DNA of 64,000 nucleotides, taken from Xylographa opegraphella (lineage: Eukaryota). The notes under the pieces are model-generated. The model saw nothing but the letters and a program-made list of their open reading frames with translations. It had not been told where the DNA came from and did not search any database. Position 1 is the first letter of the stretch, and the number at the start of each line of letters is the position of its first letter. Where the stretch lies: positions 248,001-312,000 of the forward strand of contig JALDZX010000013.1 in the NCBI GenBank assembly GCA_022813865.1, read 5' to 3'. The position numbers and the translations under genes were made by a program. Positions 46,001-61,860 of the stretch are shown here, in pieces.

Positions 46001-47489
46001 ACGATATCACCACTCGCTTGCATGACAACCCTAAAAGGATCTTTGAACTGCACGATCAAGCCAGCACGTCCGTCGAGGTCGAGGTTGACAGAGCTTACAC
46101 CTTACTCCCATCAGCTGTCTGGTCTCCTTTTGCTGGAAAGACAATGCGAGGGTCTGTCACCAGAGTGATGTTCCAAGACAAGACTGCGTGCCTTGATGGA
46201 GATCTCGTTATGGACTCGGCGCATGGAAAAGACATGTCTGCTCACAGTCTTTCACCAGCTTCACCTGAAATAAAATGTGCCGCATCTCCAGCCTTGCAAC
46301 CTCGTCCCGATAGCTCTCATGGGCGACGGCAGTCACTCCTTTCATCAAGACCCATCAATCGCATTCGAGCTCAGCTTGATGGCCAGCAGCCCGCAATCGG
46401 ACCAACATCTGCCATAGCCGAAGATCTTGGCCCACCCCTCTACCATCCGATTTCCACCACTGGCACCTCTCCCTCTCTGCTCGAGCTCCTCTCCCGCTCT
46501 CCTTTCAAGCAGCGTCATATACTCAGTGTTACCCAGTTTTCTCGTCAAGATCTCCACCTTCTCTTCACAGTTGCCCAAGAGATGCGTCTTGGCGTTCAAC
46601 GCGCCGGAGTTCTCGACATTCTCCGTGGGCGGCTCCTCTGCACCCTCTTCTACGAGCCCTCCACGCGCACTTCCGCCTCTTTCGATGCCGCGATGCAGCG
46701 TCTCGGTGGGCGCACTCTTCCTATATCCACCGCCCACTCCTCCACGCAGAAAGGCGAGTCGCTTCAGGATACGATTCGTACTCTAGCTTGCTACGCAGAT
46801 TGTATCGTCTTACGCCACCCGGACCCCGACTCCGCTCGCGTCGCTGCGAAGTATTCCCCTGTCCCTATCCTCAACGGCGGCAACGGAAGCGTCGAGCACC
46901 CCACACAGGCATTCCTCGACTTGTTCACCATCCGCGAGGAACTCGGCACCGTCACGGGGCTGACCATTACGTTCGTTGGAGACCTCCGCTACGGTCGCAC
47001 CGTGCACTCTCTGGTCCAGCTACTCGCCCACTACGCAGTAACCATTCAGCTCGTCTCGCCCGCTGTCCTCGCCCTCCCGTCCACCATCCGCGCCTCCCTT
47101 ATCAGCTCTGGCCAGCTGTCCGCGGAGTCTACTGCACTGACCCCCGAAATCGTAGCACATAGCGATGTGCTGTACTGCACACGCGTGCAGAAAGAGCGCT
47201 TCGAGGACGCTGCTGTGTACGAGAGTGTCAAGGATAGTATTGTCATCAACAACAAGGTGCTCAGGGACGCAAAACCGGGTTGCGTGGTTATGCATCCGCT
47301 GCCGAGGAACAATGAGATAGACGAGGAGGTCGATTTTGATGGACGGGCGGCGTACTTTAGACAGGTGAGCTTCACGGGTCCTGGGGCTGACATGTAATAG
47401 AGAAACGCGTGGCTGATAGTTATGCTCTACAGATGCGATACGGGCTGTACTGCCGCATGGCACTGCTGGCCCTAGTGATGGCGCCTTAG
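40096..47489 (+). CDS. URA2: Multifunctional pyrimidine enzyme GATase-CPSase-(cryptic DHOase)-ATCase
   Basis: [48 protein letters not shown], ATCase [22 protein letters not shown]. Introns 41064-41113, 43576-43785, 47365-47432; last exon [18 protein letters not shown]. The 5' start is uncertain (40096 via a leader intron, or 40442). Confidence 0.95.
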
Positions 47490-49217
47490 CGCTAGAATAG
47501 ACGAAGGGGGCGGACGAATCGATCGAATATGGTAGAGCAAAAGAGGGATGTGGTTGAGAGTCGACTCTGGGAGGAAGTAGTGGATTGAGGGTTCGCTGTG
47601 CGAGCGGGAGGCTTTGTCGGATTCGAGATTGTGCGAGCAGAAGCATTTGCTGTGACGGGCCGAGGGCGGCTGATCAAAAAAGTTTTGTTTGTACAGGACA
47701 GAAAAAGTTTAGAGATTGTATGGGCGAGTGGAAGATTTACATTGGGCGCGAGGGGGCTTTAGTATCTTGGTAGATTAAAAGTGATGGAGCTTTCGACGCA
47801 CAATCTGGTCGGTATTACAATATACGTCTGGAAAGGCACTGAAATGGAAGGGACGTGGCTAGACTTCACGTGACGTGTTGTTACAAACGGAGGCTCGTGT
47901 GAGTGTACGAGCCAGCTATACCCTTTAGAATCTCATGAGCCACGCGTCCTCGAATCCCTCTCCCGACTACTACGGGACCGCTCCGATTGCGTATATAGAG
48001 GGGGAGAGCTCTCCTAGCGAAACTGCTATATTGCGAGATATCCAATACGGAATGGAGTTCTCGACCCGGTAATCATCTTCTCAATTGCTACCTCCCACGC
48101 ATAATCTTATAGGTACGCAGCACGTTCTTAACTTGCATTTATTTATTGTAGCGAAGTTCAATGGAAATTTGCTTCTGTGATAAACTCTGCTGTTAGAAGT
48201 GGGCGGACTGACGAGGCTGTGTTTCGGTTCCTGCTGCGCAGCTGAGCTGTGATTGGATTGCTTATCTTAGAGTGCGGTGGCTGTCCAATCAGGAGTGGTG
48301 TCCTGGCAGTGGGCGCTGGAGTGGTTAGGGGGTTAGTCGACTACCGACATTTTGTTTGTAGGTATGTTGCGCGTCCGTAGCAGTCGCATCGCGGCAGCGG
48401 TGTTCGATCTTGGATTCTGGCATTGAGAGTAGATGTGTACTCGGTCCGGAGGTGAATAGCTTGGGCTCGCTGTTGCGGCTCATGCGCGCTCGATTATCAA
48501 ATCAGGCCGTCGGGACTTCCGGTTGATATCTCAACCCCTTTCCACCTGTGCATCAGATTAAACAAGCGCCTGAACCAATCGCCTCCGTCCTTTCCAGCCT
48601 ACGCACCGCGCCACACCAGAGACATGCATGTTTCCCAGACCAATCCTCCCCGGTGCTACTCCGCCCTCCGAAATAGGCATCTTTGCTGAAAGCGAGGTTT
48701 CATGAGCCCCGATCGGGGACTGCAGGCCTCGTGTTGTTCTGTACTTTATGGATGGAGCTCGTTTGCCAATCGTGGGTGATGGTTGGGTGTGAGACAGCTT
48801 GTGTGATCCTCTTTGGGAACTGGTCCTGCGTTGCGGAGCGGGTTGCTTGGGCGGTTTTGTCCCGGAATAAGGGTTCTTGTTCCTGCTCCTTTGATCCTTG
48901 ATTGCCTTTTTGGGCGGTGGGCATGTGATGGGGGACTGGAAGATGGTAGGAGGGTGAGATGGGGGTTCGCGTGGGCCTTCAAGGTGGGGGATGGGGGTAT
49001 AGATGGTCGTCTTGCCCTTCGATGTATAGTCACTTTGCATCACTTCTCGCCGTCTTTATTGTACCGGACTCGATTCAGCGTTCTCTTCTCCTGGCTCTTT
49101 CTGTTTACTATTCTACTTCAACACATCCACTTCCCCCTCCGCCTCCTCCTCTCTCCAATTCCCCCCCTACAACCACATCCACCACCACCAACTTCCCCCC
49201 AAAAATGCACCTCCCAC

Positions 49218-49350
49218 CCTCCTCCTCCTCCTCCTCCTCCCGCCCCTCACCCTCCTCTCCGCCCTCCCCCTCACCCTCGCCACCCCCCTCTCGTGGTTTC
49301 TCTTTTTTTCTTCTCTCTCTCTCTTTCTCTCTCTCGCTTCTCCCTCTGTC
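49218..49350. repeat. (CCT)n and (CT)n low-complexity tracts
   Basis: cctcctcctcctcc... at 49218-49240 and tctctctct... at about 49303-49350. Confidence 0.75.
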
Positions 49351-50590
49351 TGTCCTTTGGCAGTGGGGGTATGGGGTACACTTTCCTAACGACTCCCTCG
49401 GCAGGCCGGTATGGTAGCTTGCGAACGGGCAAGCAGCGTGTTAAGCAGTCTGGAGCGGGCGGTGCGCCTTACATCCTGTGCGCATCGGCCATAGCGAAAA
49501 GAGGGGAGGGAAAGGAAAGCCTGGGGCGAGGCACAAGACATCGTAATTCCGCAGCATATGCTCGAGTGAGCGTCGTTAATGGGTGCGCGGTTGGACGGTG
49601 GTGACGGGTTTTAAGCGCCCGCTTTGCTCCCAGCCGATGGGATATTTTGCTTATCGAGGGGGGGGGGAATGCTTTTCTGCTTCCCGAAGCAAGTGCGGCT
49701 TTCTAGGGCTTTGTGGTTATAGGCTGGTGTTCGTGCGTGGTGTTGCGGTCTGTTTGTTTTCGTTCGACTGGCGGGACTTAATTGGGAGGGATGAATTCGC
49801 AGTTCGGGTCTATGATCTTATCGAGTCGAGTTCTTAGAAGGCGGTTATACTTAATGGTGGATTTACCCCTTTTTATTAATAGCTGTGGCGATCTTGCGTA
49901 TGAGTTATGATTGCGGGCTTATAGCTGTCGGTTGTATGGGAGCACATATTCACTCACTCACTCACTTCCCCTGTATGCATAGGAGAAGAATCTGACCGCT
50001 ACCGTTGACGGAACCCTCCCTGCCTCCCGCCTCATAAAACCCAGGTGTATAACTACGAAAGCCGTACCGCCCCGTACCTCCCTTCCCCCCTCTCTCATCG
50101 TGGTACCAGGTCCGTCCACCGCCTGCACCCTTCACCCACTCTCTACGACCTCGGCTCCAATTCGCAAATCACGCATCTCCTTTCTCCCGCGCTACCCGCC
50201 TAGTCATTACATCAGACATTCCCTCTGAGTCACAAACAGCGAATCAGCAACGAGGAAGGAAAAGGGCGCAACTATTCTCCCACGAAGATTCAAACGCGAT
50301 GTATTTGGTTTTGTATTTGTGTGTTCGTTACGCTGTGCTAGATAAGAACTGAAAGCGAGGTACAGTTAGATACGCGGTGCAGGAAGTATGATAAGCATGA
50401 GCGCAAGGGGAGAAGGAACATGGTTACAGGTCTGAGAGGTGAAGATGTCTTGATAAGTTCATTAAAAGGATGGTGGGGTGAAAATCAGGAGGAGATTGTC
50501 CAACAAGGGGGAATAGGACGCCAACCACCTCCTCCATTCGGCCACACAAGCTAGGAAAGGCGAGCAGTATAACAAATGGTAACGAAAGCC

Positions 50591-52874
50591 TCAATCCACA
50601 AGAACGCTCCAGATACCTCCACTGCTATCATCAGCGCCACCAGCCCCGGCACGCAACACGCCCACTCGGTCGCAAACCACCAGGTCCCCTTTCTCGCACA
50701 CGAACCGCAGACTGACGCGCCGATCGTAGAGCAGCCGATCGATTGTTCTCGCCATATCTTGGGTTGCGTTCTCGAATGACACGCGGGTAGGTAATGGGTG
50801 CGTGCCGGTTGCGGACCACCGATCGTGCCAGTCCAGACAAGCGGTGTTGCTGACGGGGTGGCGGACCACCAGGGCGTGGGGTAGGGGCGAATCTGCCGTT
50901 GAAGTCGAGGCCGCGACCTCTTCATGCCATGTCACGGTTTCGAGTTCTTCCGCTGTGTGTGGAGATGGGAGGTGTTGGAAAAAGAGTCGTGAGGTGGCGA
51001 ATAGTGTGGGCGCGGAACCTGCCGGTGGGGGTTGTGTGCATATGAAGAAGTCGAATCTGGGAACGTAGGTGAGTGGCCAAATGCTCGGGCTTGTGCCGTG
51101 TTCATACCTGGCTGAAGTCGAGTCATGAGCTGGGAAAGTGTTGACCTGTGTATCACTGGTTTCGTGGACATGTTCGTCTTTGACGGCGGTCACCGGAAGA
51201 ACATCAAGATCAGCTATCAATAGAGTCTTGTCGATCTTGAAAACGACATCGTAGTTCTGTTTCGAGATGACCTCTTCTGACACAGGTAGGCCAGTCCCTT
51301 GACGCGTTGAGACAATCTTGCCGAAATCATCAGCTTTGCTGACAATCAAGTCACTGTCAGAAATCTCGGCGAATCCGCGAACTATTATAGGGGATTGATA
51401 TTCCGCTAAACCTCGCAGCTTTGCCATGTCCACGCTCCGAAGCGAACATTGCCCGACTGTATCTGTGCCAGGCCGCACGATCATACCAGATGGATATAAA
51501 TGCTCAAAAGAAACATTCATCTCTCCCCAGTTGTAGAGATCTGATTTCTCGCGGAAGCAATACGGTCTGTCGTTGTGATGGACCAGGTCATGGGTTAGTG
51601 CAACGTCCACGGCATGGACTGTTCGGTAGGAACCGTCAATGCCGACCGCGATTGAGCAATGCCAAGGTGTCATCCCGAGAGAGTCTGTACTTTGAGGTAT
51701 CAATTGTATCGGCAATTTTGTCTTGCCTATTGAAGGGTGGATGGAAAGCCGGACATAGTCCGAGAAGCTTGATTGTAAGGCTTTCGCGAATATCTGTAAC
51801 CGAGTACCAGTTATATTATGCTCTTACAAAGTGTAGAAATGTCGCAATCGACGCACCTTGCCTCGAACAATCATTGCAGTAGCCACATCTTTCACATGTT
51901 TCTTGAACTTCCCCTTCGTGCTTCTTACTTCTGTTGACGAACACTGTTTCAAGTCGACGGCGAGAAATTTCAAATATCCGCGGTAGGTCATACATGTATC
52001 CTTATCGTCGCGTATCTGCCTCCTGACATCGAAGTTCGGATCGTCAAACTTGGCAATAAGTTCTCGCCGATAACATGATGCATGGGTCGTATATTCCTCC
52101 TTCGCGAGACCATTGTGGTGGATGCCGAGCAAATCCAAAATGCGGGCAAATCTGATGTACCGAAAACCTTTGGATACTGCCATTTCTCGAAGGGATTCGC
52201 CATACGCCCAGACTTCTTCGTCCGGGACGCTAAGAATATCTACGCAGCTTATCAGTCCGTGTAAGTTGATTGTTGAGAATTAAAGAGTTCCATAATTTAC
52301 CACTGTAGACTATTCCATCCGAGAGGATGGTAATTTCAGCTCCAGGCTTATACACCTCGGTGATGGTTTCACATAAACCGTTGAGATGGGCCAAGGCCAA
52401 TTCTTCCCCAAGATCAGGCAGTGCGCCGATGACTTTGTCTACCTTGTTGGGAGACTTGAAAGGGAACGCTGGGAGTATCATTCGTACTGGCTTTCCAGCA
52501 TCAAGATATCCTTGAATAGCAGGCAGGAAGTCGAGTTTCCCAAGCCACAACTGTTCCGAACGATGCGTGTTGTGACCATAACGCTCTAGTATATCCAGTA
52601 TCAGTGACGCCACTGAGCATTGAGGCTTCTCAGGCTTCGGCCGCAGTGGAAGTTTGATGTCAGAAAATGTGGGCATATCGTGATCGAAACTCAGGAGAAT
52701 CTCATCTACTGTCGACGCCGGTGATTCTGGACCGCTATAGACCCTGCTGGAGCCAACCATAATTCCCTGCCATTCCAAAAGGGTTCGGACTTGCTTTTCA
52801 AGGATGGCAACGCGATCAGCTGGTCCATTGGCTAGAAAAGTCTCCATCACAGCTTCGCTTGAATCGTTGAACAT
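50591..52874 (-). CDS. Isocyanide synthase (Dit1/PvcA family) fused to a degenerate TauD-like domain (~719 aa)
   Basis: Exons 52874-52301, 52239-51857, 51793-50591. ICS motifs LPAFPFKSPN, LPDLGEELAL, SDG, VWAYGESLR, TYRGYLKFL, RLSIH, TPWH. C-terminal PIIVRGF, TLFATSR, LVVRHP, KGDLVVCD. Confidence 0.92.
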
Positions 52875-54855
52875 AGTTTGATAAAATTGAAAGTCTTAGA
52901 CGATCGATCGCACATATGTATTGTTGAGCACTGTAGTAATATCGTGATAGACGAAAACGACACATGCGTCTTTCGAGACAGGAAGGAGCTTAGGGACTGT
53001 CGTTTTTCGGCATAAACAACTGATGAAAGATGACGCCTGGTAAGAGATCACCTGCAGGAAATATCACAGACAACGCCAAAATAAAGCTTGATAGCGTACA
53101 GGATTACACAAGATTCTACGGAAGGAAGGTGCGCGACCAGCACGAATGGACTGGCAGATCCAGGCTCCGGTGTGTGATTATTGATGTTGCACTGGATGTT
53201 AGAATCCGATCTTATCTCCGCGAAAACTCTATAAATTTCTAATCAAGGAGATAAACTACATTCAAACGAGTGTAACGTTATAGAGAGTAGACTGCGTACC
53301 GACGTGCTAGCATAGTGGTGGTAAGATATTGTAAGAGTCGAAGGAAAGGCACCAAGCTTTAGTTCATTTCTGCAAACATCAACGAGCTGGGCAGTAATAC
53401 CGCTCTGCAAAGAAGAAAGGCATGGCTGACAGGTACTACACTGATTTTGTGATTTTGTGCCCAGTCGTGTCGGTACGGCTGGCGTTTGGAGAACAGCTCA
53501 GGCAAGAGTACATTGTGACAAACAGATTGTATGTGAACGGAGGTTATCTCACCGTGGTTCAGAGGCCAGTTTAAACAAATAGTAGCCTTAATCAGCTACC
53601 ATAGAGACAGGATCGTCACCCAAATTCTCTAATAAGAGAACTATGGTGGAGTCATATTTCTCAGCTGCACAGGTCCACCTTGGGCTTCGGCGGCATCCTT
53701 TGGCTTGCTGTGACACGATATGTTGTATTTCTAATCGGCGTGTCTTAAAATCCTCGCTCCGCTTACAATATGTAATGGATGCCGAGCGAGCAGTAGAGCT
53801 GGTTGCTGGCCGATGAATTGCTAATTGTGTTACCTCAAGGTCTTATGTACGAGTCCGATGTCCGCGGAGGTTTGAGTTCTGCAAATCTGGAAGCATTTTC
53901 GTGTTACCTTAAGACAGGTGTCATAGTGTCATTCGTCGTGGCAGATGGAAAGTGTGTTCCGCGTGCTCAGAAATTGGAGTACGTTGCACAAGTGTCAGGT
54001 CGAGCATGGGCCATCTGACCAAAATCAGAGTTGCGATGATATGCTTGGTTTAGAGCAGCTTCCAGGATAGAAATGCGAGAGCTTGAGTCGACTTGCTGGC
54101 TCAATCAGCTCCAATTCCAAAACCTTTTGACTAAGACAGCCAGATTTGTCGGCTAGGTCGCCAGCTTCTGGTGAGATATCGAGCTGCGGCACCACGGTAT
54201 GTCGAAAGCTATCGTTATGTAGAGCTTCGTGGATGCTCCACCGAAACAGTCTTAGTTCTGATCAATACCAAGACTTCAAATTTTTCTAGCATAGATCCAA
54301 ACATCTAGGTTCATGAGATGGAAAACGTCAATCTAGTAGTCTTTTCTCCTGCTTGTCGATACATATTGCTCCATGCTTTGGCTTCTGCGTTACGTCCTGA
54401 GCAGCGGATTTTTCATGCTTGCAGCTTTCCCGCGGCTATTTGTGGCTGCAAAGCCCACGCATCGAGCGATGTATCACTTGCATTCTGTCCCATCCAGAAT
54501 GTAGCCATCCCAATTGATGCAATTGAACAAATGATAAATTGTGGGAAAAAAAGTCGGCATAAGCATGACTAAGCTCTCCTAACGGATCAATTGAGATCGG
54601 CACCGAAGTACGGCCTTGGCGCAGACCCCGCAAATGCACCACATCAAAAGGTCTCTCTGTTGACTGTGGTAATCATGACCAAGCTTGGGGCCATTGTAGG
54701 CTCTTCAATGTCTTCCACGAAGATGAAGCACCACTGGATAGTCGATACTGTAAGCATTCCAGGCCCTCATCGCACAGTCACGCAAGCTTCCTGATACATC
54801 AGTTGTGGTCCACTATCTGACCGCGAACAGCTGCTGGCTGACCCCTTGAGCCGAA

Positions 54856-57154
54856 ATGCCTGTCTTCGTGGACAATGCAAACTCTTCGCGTGACCTTAGA
54901 GTGCTACCATCTCTTGCGCCTCCTTTGCCCTGCCTGGTAGAGGCATCTTCTTCGAATCGAATCAACGGTGTTAGCGAGGTTGAACGATATGATGTCGTCG
55001 TCGTCGGAGTAAGTTTGATCTTTTGCCCTTCAGAAGTCACTCTCTTGCGAATCTTGAACTAACACAAGGCGGATAGGCTGGTCCGTCTGGTCTCTTTCTC
55101 ACTCTTCTCCTCGCTCGGTATGGTCTTCGGGACGACCGATTGTTATGTCTTGACAGCAAACCCGGTACTTTGAAATCTGGGCAAGCGGATGGACTACAAC
55201 CACGTACGCTGGAGGTCCTTCATAGCTTAGGGCTTGCAGAAGAAGTCCTGAAAGAAGGATGTCAAATGTGGGAAGTGGCTTTCTGGAACCCGACAGCTTC
55301 TGGAGGGATTGAACGGACTAGTTACGTGCCAGATGTTGCTGTTCCAGCAATGTTTCCGCACGAGGTTACAATTCACCAGGGCCGCATAGAGAGAATACTG
55401 TCAGACGATCTTTCTCGGTACTCCCAGAGGGGCGTGAAGTACTCCTCCCGTGTGTCCTCCATTATCTTAGATGAGGGAGGCGACTCGCAGTACCCAGTCG
55501 TGATTGAATATGATACTATAGACACTGAACAAAAGGGAGACCCTCCTGCAGCCAGCGCGAGGAGCAAACATTGTGTCCGCACGAAGCACGTGGTTGGTGC
55601 GGATGGTGCCCATTCTGTTGTGCGGCGCTCAATAGGCCTGGATCTGATGGGAGAGTCGAAGGATCTCATATGGGGAGTTGTCGATCTCGTGGTCGACACA
55701 GATTTCCCGGACATTCGAAGGAGATGCGCTATCCACAGTAACGCGGGCTCCGTCATGGTAATTCCAAGGGAGCGAATTGCTACAGGTGATTACCTGACTC
55801 GCCTGTATGTCCAAGTCGGTATCGAGGTTCCAGCAGACGAAATTAGCGGAGAAGACGTCGCAGACCCCACTACAATGAGCTCTGAAGCACGGCAAAAAGC
55901 CCGGGAAAGAAGGAGCAAAATAACGATGGAAGGAATACTCAAGCAAGCTCAGACAGTCTTCCATCCATATCACATCAAATTGAAAGAAAATTGCAATGTA
56001 GACTGGTGGGCAGCTTACCAGATTGGTCAACGCATGACTGAGAAATTTGCTCAAAAAGACTGCACGGGTGTACCTAGAGTTTTCATTTCGGGTGACGGTA
56101 AATTCACCAATGAAGTCTCTTTGACAGACTTCTATCCCGCTCATATATGGCTGACTTATCGCAGCTTGCCACACGCATTCGCCCAAGGCGGGACAAGGTA
56201 TGAATGTGTCGATGATGGATTCATATAATCTTTCCTGGAAGCTTGCCTATCATCTTAATGGTCTTGTCCCCACTTCGTCCCGAAAAGCTGGTGTTTCAGC
56301 CGATCTTCTCGACTCGTATGAGTTTGAGCGACGCGAAATCGCACGCGAGCTTATCGAATTCGACACGAAGTTTTCGTCCATGTTCTCTGGTAGCATTGGC
56401 AAAGAAGACGATGACAAAGGCCTGACACATGAACAATTCGTGGAAGTTTTCTCGACCGGCAATGGTTTCACTAGTGGCTGCGGGATCGAGTATTCAGAGA
56501 GCGACTCAATATGGAAGGAAGCCTGCGCAGAAGGGAATCCAATACAGGGTACCGATTATCTGGGAGGAACTTTGAGGCCTGGCCGTCGATTGCTCAGTAC
56601 AAGAGTGATCCGGCATGCTGATGGTAATCCTCGCGAATTACAAGACGGTCGGGACTGCCTTGCTCTCTGAGCATCACTTCTCATAGCTTCGTGCTAATTT
56701 GCCAATAGATTTCTCATCAAATGGTAGATATAAGATTCTCATTCTTACCTCAACAGATCTTACCAAACCCGAAGGTCGTTCGTCAAAGGCGCTCCTTTCA
56801 GTAGCCGGGATCATGAATCAGTTTCCTACAAGCGTCATTGAGCTTGTGGTTTTACATGCTCTCGAACACACCCGAAGTATATCGTGGAAGGACTTGCCAT
56901 CCGAAATTAAGCAGTATGCAGAGATGCGTTTTCATTCTGCGTGGCCTGGCGAAGCACCGACGGACAAATTCCAAACACGAAATCACATGTACAAAGCTGA
57001 GGATGCATATGGGATTTACGGAGTAAGCAGAAAGGAAGGTGCTGCTTGCATAGTAAGACCAGACGGATATGTGGCCATGGTTACGTCTCTGGACAAGGTC
57101 GAAGATATCAGGAAATACTTTGAACGGTGGCTTCAACCCCGACAGATATTGTAG
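54856..57154 (+). CDS. FAD-dependent aromatic monooxygenase, phenol 2-monooxygenase family (~700 aa)
   Basis: Introns 55009-55076, 56098-56164, 56648-56708. VVVVGAGPSG, GQADGLQPRTLE, GADGAHS, TDFPDIR, YQIGQR, GDACHTHSPKAGQGMN, C-terminal VRPDGYV. Confidence 0.93.
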
Positions 57155-57726
57155 GGTATTAAGCCTGTCTTGAGTTCCTCGTAGCTTAGCATATAGCTTC
57201 ACTAGATGAACCAGATGCCTTGGAGAAGATGTTCACGATGAGCAAGTTGTGCAACCCTGACCCGGTCCAGTACCAACGTCTAACGCAGTTCAATATGGGC
57301 CGCTTCTTGAAGTGGCAAGGCGTGCTTCTTCGCTTTAGGGCAGTGGATATCGTCATGCTCGAGATGAGTGATTGCATCACGCCATCTCGGCCAGGCTTGC
57401 CATCACATCCAGGACGCAATCGGGCTACTGTCGAAGTGATTGGCTCATCTTCACGTCCGTGATGTCGATCTCCGAGTGAATACCTGTTTCGGAGGGGTAC
57501 GAGCCATGAAATCCAGCCGTCAATACCGCAGTCACACGCCTGGGCTTGACCCCACTCGACCATGAACGTCACAGCCTGAGTAGGAGGGGCGATGATGGTG
57601 CTACATAATTGACTTGGAAGAAGCACCCTGCAGCCTTCAAATCCATTCTTGACATCAATCTCTCATCTCTTTTAACAAACTAATTGAACTCTACACATCC
57701 AAATTCACCCAAAAACAACATAAATC

Positions 57727-58675
57727 ATGTCTGGCATCCACTTCAAATCCGCCGAAGAGCAGGCCGCGGAGGGCTTTGAGCCTCTCCCCAACAGCGGCTC
57801 CACCACCGGACAGCCCTCACTCATGCAACAAGGCTTTAACCCGTCCTCCGAATCCGACAGCCAGTTCAGCCAGGGTGGCTTTCGCTCCGCGGTAGACTCC
57901 GGCAACGGCGTTTCTCAGCAAGGTGAATCCAATCTTCTGATAACAAGTCTCGCTCCAACGATACGACATGCTAACGCAGACTCAACCAGGATTCCAAGAT
58001 TCCTCCTCCAGGGGCGATAACGAGTTCTCCCAGACCGGTTTCCAGCAGACCGGTTACCAAGACCCATCCTCAACCACGGGCGATAACACCTCCCGGAGCG
58101 GCTTCCAGCAGTCCGGCTATCAAGACCCATCTTCAACCACCGGCGACAACACCTCCTCCACTGGCGGCTCCTCCGACTTCAACACCTCCAGCGGTCGTAC
58201 ATCTGAAACTGGTCCCTCAGCCGAAAGGAGCGAGAACTTTGGCGGCGGCGTCTCCGGCCAGACAGCGGAAGATACCTCCGGCTCACAATTCAGCCAAGGT
58301 GGGTTCAAAGACACCTCTGACAGCGGCTTCAGCCAAGGCGGGTTCAAAGACACCTCCGGCAGCGGCTTCAGCCAAGGTGGTTTCCAAGACACCTCTCCCA
58401 ACGCCGGCTTCACCCAAAGTGGCTTCCAAGACACCTCGGACCTGACCTCGCGCCCCGACTCCGACACTCTGGCGACCGGTAAGACGGACCAGAGCTTCAG
58501 CGGGAGCGGGACGCAACGCAGCGAAAACGACTCCTCGTCCGGTATGTTGGGCACGACATCGCGCTCGACGGGCCAGGAGGCTGTGGGGGACTATACGCAG
58601 GGAGGATACAAGGATGATGACACCGGGGTCGGCAGGCAGGGAAACTTCGGCCACTTTGAGGAGGGCGGTCGTTAG
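57727..58675 (+). CDS. Low-complexity Gly/Ser/Gln/Phe/Thr/Asp repeat protein (~293 aa), probably disordered
   Basis: ATG follows an A/C-rich leader. Intron 57923-57989 (GTGAAT...GCTAAC...CAG) joins QQ|GFQD in frame. Repeated FSQGGF(K/Q)DTS. Confidence 0.8.
58037..58437 (+). repeat. Coding tandem repeats: 2x 63 bp and about 4x 39 bp
   Basis: 63-bp units start at 58037 and 58100 (GFQQxGYQDPSSTTGDNTS). 39-42-bp units start at 58289, 58328, 58367 and 58409. Confidence 0.85.
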
Positions 58676-59014
58676 ATTGGTTTCGGGGGCGTTTGTGATC
58701 AGGACTTGGATAAGCAGTGTGGGGAAGTCGGTCGTGGCTTTACCTTTGTGTAAATAGAAAAGGAAATGGATATTTACATTGCTACACCATGCGTTCGTGC
58801 ATCTTGCCTCATGTGATCATTGCTGCCTTGGCTCGGGAACCTTTTTGGGGACATATGTTATACACCGATACTCCATTCGGACATCAGGCGGCTATGTAAA
58901 GCGCAGGTACTCCAGCACTGCACACTACCCCTAAGCAACCTCATTCCCCCACGCCTCATCAGACTACCCAGTCGCCCCCTCCCAACCATCCAAACCCCGC
59001 GGCCCTGCCCCTCC

Positions 59015-61860
59015 CTACAACCGACTCTCCACGCCCACCAGCCCCTCCACACCCTTCCACTCCCCCTCGGGCCACACGCACCTCACCGCCTCCCAAATAT
59101 GCCCGACATGGACGATCTCCAACCCATCCTTAACCTCCGCCGGCAAATCCTTGACATCCTTGCGATTCGCCACCGGCAGCAACACGGTCTTGACACCCGC
59201 CCTCAGCGCGCCGATGAGCTTCTCCTTGATGCCGCCGACGGGCAGGACCCTGCCGCGCAGGCTGACCTCACCGGTCATGGCCATGGAGGGCGGGACGGGC
59301 TTGGCGGAGAAGAGGGAGATGAGGGCGATGGTGTGGGCGAGGCCGGCGGAGGGCCCGTCCTTGGGCACGGCGCCCGAGGGGCAGTGCACGTGGATGGCGC
59401 GGTCCTTCATGATGTCGTCGGCCGGGTGGGCGGCCAGGCCGAGCGCGTACGCGTGCGCCTTCACCCACGTGAGCGCCACCTCCACCGACTCCTTCAGCAC
59501 GTCGCCCAGCTTGCCCGTCAACTGCACGCGGCCCGAGCCCGGCATGTCCGCGACTTCGATGAAGAGGATGCTGCCCTGCCCGCCGGACGAGTAGGCCACC
59601 AGCCCCGTGACGATGCCGGGCGCCGACGCCGTCGCCGCGATCTCTTCGTCGAAGCGCTCGATGCCGAGGATGGCCTCGAGGTCCGAGGCGGAGACGGTGG
59701 GGTTGTAGGCGTCGGGGCGGGAGGCGTCCTGGGCGTCGGCGTACTCGACCGCTTTGAAGCGGCAGACGGAACCGATCTCGCGCTCGAGGTTGCGCACGCC
59801 GGCTTCGCGCGTGTAGGCGGTGATGATGGTGTCGACGACCGCGTCCGTGAAGGCGACTTGGCCGGGCGAGAGGCCGTTGGTGGTGATCTGCTTGGGAATG
59901 AGGTGCTGGTTGGCGATGTGGCGCTTCTCGACCGTGGTGTAGCCGGAGAGGGCGATGGTTTCCATGCGGTCGAGCAGCGGGGGCGGGATGGTATCGAGGG
60001 AGTTGGCGGTTGCGATGAAGAGGACTTTGCTCAGGTCGATGGGGATGTTGACGTAGTGGTCGGTGAATGTGTGGTTCTGTTCCGGATCCAGGACTTCGAG
60101 CATGGCAGCGGAGGGGTCGCCGTGGAAGTTCGATCCTCCAACTTTGTCTATCTCGTCGAGAAGGAAAACCGGATTTGCTACTCCGACCTTTTTCAAGCCA
60201 TTGACAATCAAGCCTGGCATAGCTGCAACGTACGTTCTTCGGTGGCCTCGTATCTCGGCCTCATCACGGACACCTCCTAGCGATATACGATGGAATTTTC
60301 GACCTAGTGCTGTTGCGACAGATTTGGCCAGACTTGTCTTCCCCGTTCCTGGGGGTCCTACAAGTAGAAGGATCGGTGACTTGTCAACCATGCGCCGACT
60401 TTTCAGAACCTGTACTTTGGTAACGTCTGCGTCCGAGGATGAATCGGATAATGGATCGTCCAGATCGTCACGCCTCCGTGATGCCGCCTGATCAATGGCT
60501 CTTTTGGTTTCCGCTTCGATATCTGCATTGACTGCTTGTTTGAGCTTCAAGACTGCCAGATACTCCAAAAGTCGCTTCTTGATCTTATCGAGGCCATAAT
60601 GATCGTCATCGAGCTGTTTCCGAGCTCGTTTCAAAGTCTCGACACCCAGCTGGTCTTCCGTCATGGCCGTCCACGGGATCTCGGCCAGATTCTCCAAGTA
60701 TGTTCGACAAACCCCATACTCTGCCTGAGCTGGATTCATCTTCCTTAGTCGCTTGAGCTCTTTATCCGCGACTTTTTGCGCTTCGGGTGTCAGTTTCGCC
60801 TCGTCAAGCTTCTGCTTCAATTCATCGACCTCGTTGGCTTCCTCCTCGCCATCGTTGTTGTCACCGCCCCTTCCTGAAAAGCCTGGTGGTAACTGACCAG
60901 AATTGAAGCCGCCTATAGCCCGTCGCATCAGTGTATCTCGTTGTTGCTGTGGTAGATTCGTGATATTGAGACCTTGTCCAGGAATTGTCGTACTTGTTAT
61001 AGAAGTAATCTTGACGTTACCCTTGATACCCTGCACCTGTCGACTTAATAGTTCGTTGACCCTTTCAAGTCTTTGATGTATATCCAAGGCGGAAAGGACA
61101 CGGAGTTTCTCTTCGAAGGATGCTTCAACCACATTTGCCATAAAATCCGCCAGAATACCCGCCTCGTGTAGTTCCTTTCTGGATATGAATATCTCTAACC
61201 GTCTTGTCGTTATCGCCGAAAATGGCGATGATACGCGCGGGAGCAGGGAGGTGAGTCGGACAAGAGTAAGAAGCTCTCGGGATAGCTGCTTCAATTCGTT
61301 GAATAATTCTCGAGCCGTGTTGTCGTCAGGACTGGGCACTGCGGAATGTATGATCAGCCATTGCCCTAAGCGACAGAAGACTTCGACCGACCATCTTCGT
61401 CCAAATAAACGACTTCAGCCTCCATATAAGGCTTGAATTGTGTAAATCTCTCTATCCTAAATCGCCGCAACCCCTCCACAACCAAGGCAAGTTCTCCGGG
61501 CCGCCTTCCCTGGACGCCCGATATCTTGGCAACGGTGCCATATTCAAACAGGTCCTTCTCGCCGGCTCTGCCTGGATTCGCCGCCAGATGCTCTGCCGTT
61601 TTCCGCACTCTGATCTCTGCATCCTCGAGGAGGTTCTGGCCTTCCGGGCTTAGGAGTGGCGAACACAGTGGAACACATCCAACAGAGATCGAGGAGGTAT
61701 CAGGCTTCGGAGTAGCAGCTCTAGTGTAGATCGATGAGAGGAGGGCGGGAATGTCGGGACGGTTCTGGACCGGAACTCGTAGAGTTACGCCGGGCAATAG
61801 GACCGAATCTCGTGCCAGCGGAATCAATGGGAGCAGCTTGTGCTTCGGTGAAGTCGCCAT
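59015..61860 (-). CDS. Peroxisomal Lon protease (LONP2-type, ~930 aa)
   Basis: Exons 61860-61392 and 61338-59015. Lon N-domain VLLPGV, Walker [16 protein letters not shown], catalytic KDGPSAG and GGIKEK. C-terminal PTS1 -SRL. Confidence 0.95.

What the first reader, a model, noticed from the sequence alone, without database searches (positions are those of the whole stretch)
50591..57154. Candidate minimal isocyanide biosynthetic cluster: ICS-TauD fusion head-to-head with a flavin aromatic hydroxylase
Seen: an isocyanide synthase gene and a phenol-2-monooxygenase-family gene diverge from a shared 2-kb spacer and sit among housekeeping genes (URA2, Lon, egt1). Known: Dit1/PvcA enzymes convert an amino-acid amine to an isocyanide, and in the Pseudomonas pvc pathway the tyrosine isocyanide is tailored by an Fe/2OG oxygenase (PvcB) and a flavin hydroxylase (PvcC/D). 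Inference: this pair could make a hydroxylated aromatic isocyanide, perhaps a metal chelator, using a single-component flavoenzyme. I see no NRPS-like, P450 (dit2) or transcription-factor gene next to it, so it does not match the dit, xan or crm layouts I know.
Basis: partly seen in the sequence, partly recalled or inferred. Interest (0 to 1): 0.78.

Follow-up and report, generated by a model that had tools for sequence, protein, structure and literature searches.

The report
Isocyanide synthase with dead oxygenase domain
A lichen fungus carries an intact isocyanide synthase whose fused iron-oxygenase half has lost its metal-binding residues, next to an ordinary, widely conserved phenol hydroxylase gene, so a two-gene isocyanide pathway is possible but not shown.

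Summary
Two intact genes diverge from a 1,981-bp spacer: an ICS-TauD fusion (50591-52874, minus) and a phenol 2-monooxygenase-family flavoenzyme (54856-57154, plus). They lie among URA2, Lon and an Egt1-type methyltransferase. The flavoenzyme is 100% identical to a Xylographa opegraphella protein.

Three results change the interpretation.

1. The TauD half has lost the Fe(II) ligands. 27 of 27 outgroup fusions keep H-x-D and the distal His. The window has Ala, Leu and Arg there, and all 7 Xylographaceae-clade members are defective. The ICS half keeps 55 of 56 invariant positions; the TauD half keeps 24 of 45. So there is no PvcB-like step.

2. The flavoenzyme is an ortholog of a gene conserved across Pezizomycotina classes. 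It keeps 107 of 107 invariant positions, and its closest solved relative is a catabolic hydroquinone hydroxylase.

3. Locus tags place the pair within four genes in 4 of 4 Xylographaceae species that have both. One species shows only the flavoenzyme and one only the ICS. No PHOX-type gene flanks ICS genes in 35 metagenome loci.

No RNA data exist. A functional cluster is possible (about 0.2) but unproven.

The parts
50591..52874 (-). ICS-TauD gene. Exons 52874-52301, 52239-51857 and 51793-50591 (stop included); 719 aa.
   Evidence: Pfam on the exon ORFs. Splice model with GT..AG introns of 61 and 63 nt. Matches annotated P0001 except for 17 residues.
51596..52517 (-). Isocyanide synthase (DIT1_PvcA) domain, apparently intact.
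   Evidence: PF05141 at 112.2, 111 and 65.4 bits. PvcA 3E59 at 118.6 bits and Tyr/Trp isonitrile synthase 9DHM at 106.9 bits. Keeps 55 of 56 positions invariant in 27 outgroup fusions.
50594..51433 (-). TauD/PvcB-like domain, degenerate: fold kept, metal site lost.
   Evidence: PF02668 at only 29.8 bits, cut-off 27. Foldseek best hits are PIsnB 7TCL (E 1.3e-11, TM 0.70 by target length) and PvcB 3EAT/4YLM. Keeps 24 of 45 invariant positions. The frame is open, with 0 stops against 6-13 in the other frames; 1 of 20,000 shuffles is open.
51197..51223 (-). Site of the lost H-x-D motif. The window reads LLIADLDVL where 27 of 27 outgroup fusions read MPMH[YF]DGMF-like.
   Evidence: Alignments. It lies in a stretch of about 78 residues (51071-51304) with pLDDT near 30 and no secondary structure.
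50645..50671 (-). Site of the lost distal His. The window reads DRVGVLRAG where outgroups read DNxxMLHTR. The conserved C-terminal RELWRIH is also changed, to GGIWSVL.
51057..51107 (-). In-frame 51-nt segment (GTATGA...CCCAG), read as an intron in the public annotation and as coding in the annotated orthologs.
   Evidence: P0001 lacks these 17 residues; P0002 and P0003 keep them. Sequence shown. No RNA was available to decide.
52875..54855 (.). Shared 1,981-bp divergent spacer with no detectable gene.
   Evidence: No ORF longer than 87 aa. 7 of 7 ORFs tested have no Pfam match.
54856..57154 (+). Phenol/hydroquinone hydroxylase-family flavoprotein monooxygenase. Exons 54856-55008, 55077-56097, 56165-56647 and 56709-57154; 700 aa.
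   Evidence: Pfam FAD_binding_3 plus Phe_hydrox_dim. The model is identical to P0035. PDB matches: 8R2U at 386.7 bits, 1PN0 at 348.9 bits. GAGPSG, GADGAHS and GDACHTHSPKAGQGMN motifs are present. Asp89, Tyr295 and Arg267 are conserved.

Best explanation
The region holds two intact, divergently transcribed genes of a Xylographa lichen fungus, and they probably work independently. Gene 1 is an isocyanide synthase whose fused Fe(II)/2-oxoglutarate oxygenase (PvcB/IsnB-type TauD) domain is a catalytically dead relic. Both iron-binding His residues, the Asp and the C-terminal Arg-containing motif are replaced. The segment that should carry H-x-D is predicted to be disordered, and the domain diverges about twice as fast as the ICS half. 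Yet its reading frame is kept open in the window, and full-length fused proteins are annotated for four relatives. Inferred: the enzyme behaves like a monodomain ICS and releases a saturated alpha-isocyano acid rather than a vinyl isocyanide. By precedent (recalled: PvcA, XanB, Dit1) the substrate may be tyrosine. The relic would have only a structural role. This looks like an intermediate on the ICS-TauD to monodomain route proposed by Nickles et al. Gene 2 is the local ortholog of an ancient, slowly evolving Pezizomycotina phenol/hydroquinone hydroxylase with all conserved residues intact. It most likely ortho-hydroxylates small phenols. On this reading the pair stays adjacent in the family mainly through inherited synteny. 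Shown: gene structures, domain identities, loss of the triad, orthology of the monooxygenase, and locus-tag adjacency in four species. Inferred: loss of activity, the ICS product, and the independence of the two genes.
For: Triad loss. In an alignment of the window with 31 homologs, 27 of 27 outgroup fusions have H-x-D and the distal His. The window, X. soralifera, X. pallens and Lambiella do not. In a wider census of 124 sequences, 79 are intact and 25 have no TauD region. The other 20 include all 7 Xylographaceae-clade members. The pairwise HMMER alignment to 7TCL shows the distal His replaced by Arg and no His or Asp opposite the template's H-W-D, although it places that motif elsewhere in the divergent segment.

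Rates. The ICS half keeps 55 of 56 invariant columns and the TauD half 24 of 45. The TauD/ICS identity ratio is 0.42-0.76 within the clade, against at least 0.77 (mean 1.10) in 351 outgroup pairs.

Fold. AF2 gives mean pLDDT 70, with exon-3 residues 164-241 near 30. The best Foldseek hits are PIsnB and PvcB. The frame is kept open.

ICS tree. The clade (8 rows, SH-aLRT 99) is sister (98) to a group that contains monodomain ICSs. Nickles et al. propose loss-of-function routes to monodomain ICS (passages of PMC10153163).

Monooxygenase. It is 63-65% identical to orthologs in Leotiomycetes, Eurotiomycetes and a Dothideomycete. Its tree follows classes, with Leotiomycetes 8 of 8 and Eurotiomycetes 13 of 13 monophyletic. 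It keeps 107 of 107 invariant and 264 of 285 near-invariant columns. Its best solved relative is TvMNX3, a hydroquinone 2-hydroxylase induced by aromatic substrates. Arg267 occupies the pocket position of PHHY Arg266 in 102 of 104 orthologs.

Independence. X. bjoerkii has the monooxygenase at 91% identity, but no ICS-clade ortholog was found among proteins of 220-2000 aa. For X. soralifera the reverse holds. Among 35 metagenome ICS loci, 0 carry a PHOX-type gene.
Against: Source locus tags and equal contig lengths place the two genes adjacent or within four genes in 4 of 4 Xylographaceae species with both: X. opegraphella 2626/2627, X. trunciseda 3068/3069, X. pallens 5897/5901 and Lambiella 1029/1027. 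That spans a divergence at which the ICS half is only 67% identical. I could not measure background synteny, so selection for linkage is not excluded. Among Lecanoromycetes, both the ICS clade and the monooxygenase ortholog appeared only in Xylographaceae in the lists returned, which is a weak co-distribution signal. A paper notes that X. vitiligo has a very reduced set of aromatic catabolic pathways (passage of PMC13094099), so a purely catabolic role is less self-evident here. TvMNX3, TvMNX4 and AnPhhA hydroxylate para-substituted phenols such as p-coumarate, so the proposed chemistry is feasible for this family. One metagenome contig (L020) has a distantly related FAD_binding_3 gene head-to-head with an ICS-TauD gene. 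Inactivity of the TauD domain is inferred from sequence only. The apparent absences in X. bjoerkii and X. soralifera rest on annotated proteins, not on genome DNA.
Confidence: 0.55

Rival explanations
1. One reading: a minimal two-gene isocyanide cluster. The ICS makes an aromatic (tyrosine-derived) isocyanide and the neighbouring single-component flavin hydroxylase adds an ortho-hydroxyl, giving a catechol-type isocyanide. With the fused oxygenase dead, the flavoenzyme could be the only oxidative tailoring step.
For: The genes are head-to-head on a shared 2-kb spacer. Linkage holds in 4 of 4 Xylographaceae species with both genes. Within Lecanoromycetes both genes were seen only in this family. 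Relatives of the flavoenzyme accept para-substituted phenols. Another contig, L020, pairs an ICS-TauD gene with an FAD_binding_3 gene head-to-head. The relic domain is closest to PIsnB, which was solved with tyrosine isonitrile bound.
Against: The monooxygenase is an ancient ortholog with all 107 invariant positions kept and a class-congruent tree. Arg267 at the pocket position goes with inactivity on p-coumarate in PHHY and in TvMNX4 L219R. Presence is discordant in X. bjoerkii and X. soralifera. Intervening genes separate the pair in X. pallens (3) and Lambiella (1). No PHOX-type neighbour occurs in 35 ICS loci. The usual ICS-cluster partners seen in other loci, namely DJ-1/PfpI, P450, transporters and transcription factors, are absent from the flanks here.
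Confidence: 0.2
2. The whole ICS gene is decaying, a pseudogene in progress, and makes no product. Only the monooxygenase is functional.
For: The TauD half diverges fast, including within the genus at 56-66% identity. Two unnamed orthologs are annotated as shorter proteins of 531 and 583 aa carrying PF05141 only. X. bjoerkii appears to have lost the gene.
Against: The ICS half keeps 55 of 56 invariant positions and is 87-88% identical within the genus, similar to the monooxygenase at 88-91%. The full 719-codon frame is open, with canonical splice sites. An open frame in the relic arose in 1 of 20,000 shuffles.
Confidence: 0.08
3. The degenerate TauD domain keeps a non-canonical function, such as substrate capture or channelling, oligomerisation, or metal-independent or differently liganded catalysis. 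The fusion is then functionally distinct from both ICS-TauD and monodomain ICS enzymes. This is compatible with either reading of the neighbouring gene.
For: The frame is open in the window, and full-length fused proteins are annotated for four relatives. Several blocks remain conserved, including SPIIVRGFA, TLFA(T/A)SRLFFQHLP, VVRHPV and LYDRRV.LR..EKGDL. The core strands are modelled at pLDDT 85-95.
Against: 21 of 45 invariant positions are lost, and about 78 residues around the former metal site are predicted to be disordered. The sister lineages do without the domain altogether.
Confidence: 0.17

Closest known systems
[quoted passage not shown] Aspergillus fumigatus XanB and IcsB (Lim et al. 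2018, PMC5974471, passages; Nickles et al. 2023, PMC10153163, passages)
   Same: It has the same architecture: PF05141 followed by PF02668 in one polypeptide of about 700 aa. It is homologous over the full length to many such fusions at 30-43% identity.
   Different: The oxygenase half lacks the 2-His-1-carboxylate site that 79 of the 99 homologs with a TauD region keep. The neighbourhood has no P450, isocyanide hydratase, transporter or transcription factor. The presumed xan-type representative (A. fischeri P0229; the xan assignment is my guess, not tested) is only 30% identical and lies on a distant branch.
Pseudomonas aeruginosa pvcABCD (paerucumarin) and Photorhabdus IsnA/IsnB. PvcB and PIsnB structures: 3EAT, 4YLM, 7TCL (PMC9467999, passages)
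   Same: The ICS half matches PvcA (3E59, 118.6 bits). The relic half has PIsnB and PvcB as its best structural matches. The idea of isocyanide formation plus a flavin-dependent ring hydroxylation parallels PvcA plus PvcC/D (the pathway is recalled, not taken from a call).
   Different: There is no working PvcB equivalent. The flavoenzyme is a single-component group A phenol hydroxylase, not a two-component HpaB/C-type enzyme (recalled). No functional link between the two genes is shown.
Monodomain fungal ICSs (Dit1, IcsA-type)
   Same: It is predicted to be functionally equivalent, with ICS chemistry only. The sister group in the ICS tree contains monodomain enzymes.
   Different: It still carries a translated relic domain of about 280 residues.
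Phenol/hydroquinone hydroxylase clade of group A flavoprotein monooxygenases: TvMNX3 (8R2U), Trichosporon cutaneum PHHY (1PN0, 1FOH), A. nidulans PhhA (PMC12915361, passages)
   Same: It combines FAD_binding_3 with the Phe_hydrox_dim dimerisation domain. It scores 386.7 and 348.9 bits to 8R2U and 1PN0. The catalytic Asp (QADG) and Tyr (RLY) are conserved in 104 of 104 orthologs, and Arg occupies the PHHY Arg266 position.
   Different: It has an N-terminal extension of about 40 residues. It carries 21 lineage-specific changes at otherwise near-invariant positions. Its substrate is unknown. It sits next to an ICS gene.

Membership tests
Isocyanide synthase (DIT1_PvcA, PF05141) | Significant match across the full profile | tested here: met
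   Three exon ORFs cover profile positions 1-267 of 273 at 112.2, 111 and 65.4 bits, cut-off 26.4. PvcA 3E59 scores 118.6 bits.
Isocyanide synthase (DIT1_PvcA, PF05141) | Retention of the family's invariant residues | tested here: met
   55 of 56 columns that are invariant in 27 outgroup fusions are kept. The catalytic residues themselves were not identified from any source. A literature search found no structure-function paper on this family.
Fe(II)/2-oxoglutarate oxygenase, TauD/PvcB type (PF02668) | Profile match and double-stranded beta-helix fold | tested here: met
   The match is 29.8 bits against a cut-off of 27, covering profile positions 106-244 of 267. Foldseek to 7TCL gives E 1.3e-11 and TM 0.70 by target length.
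Fe(II)/2-oxoglutarate oxygenase, TauD/PvcB type (PF02668) | [quoted passage not shown] H) | tested here: not met
   The window has Ala, Leu and Arg at the three positions, while 27 of 27 outgroups have H, D and H. The 7TCL alignment agrees on the lost distal His and puts no His or Asp opposite the template's H-W-D. It is therefore not filed as a catalytic member.
Fe(II)/2-oxoglutarate oxygenase, TauD/PvcB type (PF02668) | Conserved C-terminal Arg-containing motif (RELWRIH in the fungal fusions; its role in 2OG binding is recalled) | tested here: not met
   The window reads GGIWSVL.
Phenol 2-monooxygenase clade of group A flavoprotein monooxygenases | FAD_binding_3 plus the C-terminal Phe_hydrox_dim domain | tested here: met
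   98.9 and 55.5 bits for FAD_binding_3, and 70 bits for Phe_hydrox_dim.
Phenol 2-monooxygenase clade of group A flavoprotein monooxygenases | GxGxxG, DG and GD fingerprints, and the catalytic Asp and Tyr described for PHHY and TvMNX3 | tested here: met
   GAGPSG, GADGAHS and GDACHTHSPKAGQGMN are present. Asp89 and Tyr295 are conserved in 104 of 104 orthologs. Their roles are taken from PMC12915361.
Fungal ICS biosynthetic gene cluster (in the sense of Nickles et al.) | Co-regulation of the backbone gene with its neighbours | not testable with these tools
   No RNA run holds the stretch.
Fungal ICS biosynthetic gene cluster (in the sense of Nickles et al.) | Neighbour conserved with the backbone across genomes beyond background synteny | tested here: inconclusive
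   Locus tags link the pair in 4 of 4 Xylographaceae species that have both, but 2 species have only one of the genes. Background synteny was not measurable. Among other ICS loci, 0 of 35 carry a PHOX-type gene.
Fungal ICS biosynthetic gene cluster (in the sense of Nickles et al.) | Typical accessory genes: P450, isocyanide hydratase (DJ-1/PfpI), MFS, transcription factor | tested here: not met
   None was found within 20 kb on either side. They are common in the 16 other loci scanned: DJ-1/PfpI in 4, P450 in 5, transporters in 6, transcription factors in 2.

The most novel reading that the evidence does not exclude
After its fused Fe/2OG oxygenase domain died, this lichen ICS lineage recruited the adjacent ancient phenol hydroxylase as a replacement oxidative tailoring enzyme. 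The result would be a two-gene pathway to a catechol-type (DOPA-like) isocyanide metallophore in Xylographaceae, a family that includes wood-dwelling lichens (ecology recalled). That would be a new minimal layout for a fungal isocyanide cluster, and an example of a catabolic enzyme captured by a decaying biosynthetic fusion.
Probability: 0.12. Interest if true: 0.7.

Novelty: new variant of a known kind. Interest (0 to 1): 0.4.

Why it matters
ICS-TauD fusions are one of three known backbone types of fungal isocyanide clusters. Nickles et al. proposed that monodomain ICSs arose from them through loss-of-function mutations. This lineage looks like a living intermediate. The oxygenase half is still translated, but it has lost all its metal ligands, and the lineage sits next to monodomain relatives in the tree. 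That makes the transition testable, and it raises the question of what a dead fused domain still contributes. It is also a practical warning. Domain-based mining would score this gene as a desaturating ICS-TauD and predict a vinyl isocyanide, and adjacency-based mining would call the neighbouring hydroxylase a tailoring enzyme. Neither call is justified by the residues. If the pair does prove to cooperate, it would be the smallest fungal isocyanide pathway known, and the first described from a lichen fungus as far as my two literature searches show.

Tried and rejected
- Whole genome of the window: none is held, so I could not look for paralogs, ring-cleavage genes or wider synteny.
- Earlier findings of this scan: nothing by place or by sequence.
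- RNA evidence: no RNA holder is listed for 50400-57300. Only one DNA run, the likely source, holds it.
- Hidden gene in the spacer or between URA2 and the ICS: no ORF longer than 87 aa in the spacer and no Pfam match. Only low-complexity ORFs lie in 47400-50590.
- Direct sequence match of exon 3 to PDB oxygenases is weak: 7TCL at E 0.02 and 3EAT at 0.14. The fold search was needed.
- Alternative H-x-D/E motifs elsewhere in the relic (HVHE, AHDS, WHEE) were considered. None lies in the column of the family motif, so I rejected them as replacements, though no structure-based test was possible.
- Literature on degenerate ICS-TauD domains: a search for 'isocyanide synthase' plus 'facial triad' found only PMC9467999, which concerns bacterial PIsnB and PvcB. 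A search for ICS structure-function papers found none. The supplements of Nickles et al., which list the domain content of each cluster family, were not opened, so a cluster family with a FAD_binding_3 partner may exist there.
- Horizontal transfer of the monooxygenase: the tree gives no sign of it, but it is only midpoint-rooted and has 28 rows.

Full report
OBSERVATION

On the minus strand, three adjacent stop-to-stop ORFs match consecutive parts of the Pfam isocyanide synthase profile DIT1_PvcA. The scores are 112.2, 111 and 65.4 bits against a cut-off of 26.4. The last ORF also matches TauD, but only at 29.8 bits against a cut-off of 27, and only over profile positions 106-244 of 267. Two GT..AG introns of 61 and 63 nt join the ORFs in frame into a 719-aa protein.

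On the plus strand, four exons joined by GT..AG introns of 68, 67 and 61 nt give a 700-aa protein with FAD_binding_3 and the phenol hydroxylase dimerisation domain. The two start codons are 1,981 bp apart.

The spacer has no ORF above 87 aa, and 7 of 7 ORFs tested have no Pfam match. The surroundings are housekeeping genes: URA2-type CPSase/ATCase, Lon, an Egt1-type methyltransferase, YVC1, Dicer, an SPB4-type helicase, TAP42 and PAPS reductase. The ORFs of at least 150 aa that I scanned gave no P450, NRPS-like enzyme, transcription factor, DJ-1/PfpI protein or MFS transporter.

ORGANISM AND PUBLIC ANNOTATION

My monooxygenase model is identical over all 700 residues to a protein that its source names as Xylographa opegraphella MMC26_002627. 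The ICS corresponds to MMC26_002626. The only difference is that the annotators spliced out an in-frame 51-nt segment, which the annotated orthologs of X. soralifera and X. pallens keep as coding. No RNA run was available to settle this.

THE ICS-TauD PROTEIN

The ICS half looks fully functional.
- It matches PvcA (3E59) at 118.6 bits and a Tyr/Trp isonitrile synthase (9DHM) at 106.9 bits.
- It keeps 55 of 56 positions that are invariant in 27 outgroup fusions.

The TauD half does not look functional.
- In an alignment of the window with 31 homologs, all 27 outgroup fusions carry MPMH[YF]DG and, near the C-terminus, DNxxM(L/M/E)HT(R/K). These are the H-x-D and distal His of the Fe(II) site. 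The window reads LLIADLDVL and DRVGVLRAG, so the three ligand positions are Ala, Leu and Arg.
- The conserved C-terminal RELWRIH has become GGIWSVL.
- A pairwise HMMER alignment to the solved PIsnB (7TCL) also shows the distal His replaced by Arg and no His or Asp opposite the template's H-W-D. It places that motif elsewhere in the divergent segment, so the exact register there is uncertain.
- A wider census covered 124 sequences: the window plus 123 homologs of at least 300 aa. Of these, 79 have the intact triad and 25 have no TauD region. The other 20 include all 7 members of the window's clade (window, X. soralifera, X. pallens, X. trunciseda, Lambiella insularis and two unnamed ENA proteins). 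They also include some truncated fragments and a few apparently independent degenerate cases (P0028, P0186, P0199, P0200, P0218).
- Two metagenome loci, L004 and L010/L011, also lack the ligands.
- The relic keeps 24 of 45 invariant positions. Its identity relative to the ICS half is 0.42-0.76 within the clade. The mean is 1.10 and the minimum 0.77 in 351 outgroup pairs.
- An AlphaFold2 model built on a 40-sequence alignment has mean pLDDT 70. The core strands reach 85-95, but 78 residues around the former H-x-D strand are near 30 with no secondary structure.
- The best structural matches are PIsnB bound to tyrosine isonitrile (7TCL, E 1.3e-11) and PvcB. The relic therefore descends from the isonitrile-desaturating oxygenases.
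- The frame remains open: 0 stops in 280 codons against 6-13 in the other five frames, and 1 of 20,000 shuffles gave an open frame. The domain is dead as an oxygenase but is still made.

In an ICS tree of 42 rows (midpoint-rooted, SH-aLRT support only), the clade has support 99. It is sister, at 98, to a group containing a degenerate NACHT fusion and monodomain ICSs from Penicillium, Alternaria and Colletotrichum. This fits the proposal of Nickles et al. that monodomain ICSs arose from ICS-TauD ancestors by loss-of-function mutations (passages read).

THE MONOOXYGENASE

- It is 88-91% identical to orthologs in three other Xylographa species and 78% to Lambiella, measured over exon 2. It is 59-66% identical to well over a hundred proteins from Leotiomycetes, Eurotiomycetes and a Dothideomycete. 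In all, 1,179 proteins scored E <= 0.001, of which the best 120 were listed.
- A 28-row tree follows class taxonomy. Leotiomycetes are 8 of 8 in one clade at 99, Eurotiomycetes 13 of 13 at 94, and Xylographaceae 5 of 5 at 98.
- Against 99 orthologs from other lineages, the window's protein keeps 107 of 107 invariant columns and 264 of 285 columns conserved at 95% or more.
- The best solved relative is 8R2U at 386.7 bits, followed by Trichosporon cutaneum phenol hydroxylase at 348.9 bits. VibO, the biosynthetic member of the family, scores only 176.5 bits.
- 8R2U is TvMNX3, a hydroquinone 2-hydroxylase of aromatic catabolism that is induced by 4-hydroxybenzoate and p-coumarate (passages of PMC12915361).
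- The catalytic Asp and Tyr described in that paper are present in 104 of 104 orthologs.
- The pocket residue is Lys in TvMNX3, Leu in TvMNX4 and Arg in PHHY. It is Arg267 here and Arg in 102 of 104 orthologs. In that paper PHHY and the TvMNX4 L219R mutant do not act on p-coumarate. This suggests, by inference only, a small-phenol substrate rather than a tyrosine-sized one.

LINKAGE

Adjacency was read from the sources' locus tags and from equal contig lengths, not from DNA.

| Species | ICS-clade ortholog | Monooxygenase ortholog |
|---|---|---|
| X. opegraphella | 2626 | 2627 |
| X. trunciseda | 3068 | 3069 |
| X. pallens | 5897 | 5901 |
| Lambiella insularis | 1029 | 1027 |
| X. bjoerkii | not found among proteins of 220-2000 aa (only a 37% paralog with an intact triad) | 3551 |
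| X. soralifera | 1664 | not among the listed proteins of 596 aa or more |
| X. vitiligo | not found | not found |

The pair is thus linked in 4 of 4 species that have both genes.

Outside the family, the two species that appear in both lists show no linkage. Penicillium riverlandense has tags 134 and 2498, and Xylogone has the genes on different contigs. Their ICSs are only about 40% identical to the window's, so they are probably not orthologs.

In 35 metagenome loci with ICS homologs (320 kb), tblastn with the monooxygenase found only one weak match. In L020, at 28-38% identity, an FAD_binding_3 gene without the dimerisation domain lies head-to-head with an ICS-TauD gene that keeps H-x-D.

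I then ran Pfam on 16 of the 35 loci: those of at least 6.6 kb, with one taken per near-duplicate set. From these I scanned 171 of 218 ORFs of at least 110 aa. The 47 left out lay in the ICS genes themselves. The scan found DJ-1/PfpI in 4 loci, P450 in 5, transporters in 6, transcription factors in 2, FAD_binding_3 in 1 and Phe_hydrox_dim in 0. Several of these loci are near-identical to each other, so the counts are not independent.

INTERPRETATION

The best-supported reading (0.55) has two parts.
- The ICS works as a stand-alone isocyanide synthase carrying a dead, structurally retained oxygenase domain.
- The neighbour is the local copy of an ancient phenol/hydroquinone hydroxylase that keeps its ancestral function. 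Adjacency would then mainly reflect inherited gene order.

The linkage is conserved, the family's chemistry could accommodate para-substituted phenols, and lichen fungi of this genus are reported to have reduced aromatic catabolism (passage of PMC13094099). Nothing positive ties the two genes together beyond position.

Decay of the entire ICS gene (0.08) is contradicted by the conservation of the ICS half. A residual non-canonical role for the relic (0.17) is open.

NOVELTY AND SCORE

The gene families and the fusion architecture are known. What I did not find in print is an ICS-TauD lineage with a translated but ligand-less oxygenase domain, or a conserved ICS/PHOX pairing in lichen fungi. 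The relevant searches were made, and the supplements of Nickles et al. were not read. I rate the finding a new variant of a known kind, with interest 0.4.

Noticed in passing
L020:639-1866 (-) and L020:3455-5487 (+): A metagenome contig carries a distantly related FAD_binding_3 monooxygenase (28-38% identity, no Phe_hydrox_dim detected). It lies head-to-head, about 1.6 kb away, with an ICS-TauD gene that keeps its H-x-D motif. This may be an independent pairing of an ICS with a flavin hydroxylase.
   Followed up: partly
L004:10337-11108; L010:4009-4813 (L011 is near-identical): These further ICS-TauD genes have a changed distal His (DNIATKTAF; DDNFAMLRTRT) and no H-x-D motif. Together with P0028, P0186, P0199, P0200 and P0218, they suggest that the oxygenase metal site has been lost repeatedly in fungal ICS fusions.
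   Followed up: partly
window 51057-51107 (-): An in-frame 51-nt segment with GT..AG ends is spliced out in the public annotation of this gene. The annotated orthologs of two sister species keep it as coding. It lies in the disordered part of the relic domain.
   Followed up: partly
window 57724-58675 (+): Just downstream of the monooxygenase lies an ORF pair encoding a Gly/Ser/Gln-rich protein with repeated FSQGGF(K/Q)DTS units. It has no Pfam match and is probably an intrinsically disordered protein.
   Followed up: no
window 47400-50590: The 3.2 kb between URA2 and the ICS stop contain no convincing gene. There are only low-complexity, proline-rich ORFs (e.g. 48807-49604) and strongly skewed composition (GC skew -0.43 at 49000-49499).
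   Followed up: partly
window 59000-59999: GC content rises to 0.69 inside the Lon protease gene, against about 0.5 around it. Long open frames appear on several frames there.
   Followed up: no
proteins P0056, P0064, P0082, P0084 and others: In many Aspergillus annotations the ortholog of this monooxygenase is fused in the gene model to an MFS/sugar transporter (PF07690, PF00083). This implies a conserved transporter neighbour in that genus.
   Followed up: no
proteins P0016, P0021: X. vitiligo and X. bjoerkii carry a second, paralogous ICS-TauD with an intact metal site, 37-38% identical to the window's protein. It belongs to a different clade, together with other Lecanoromycetes.
   Followed up: partly
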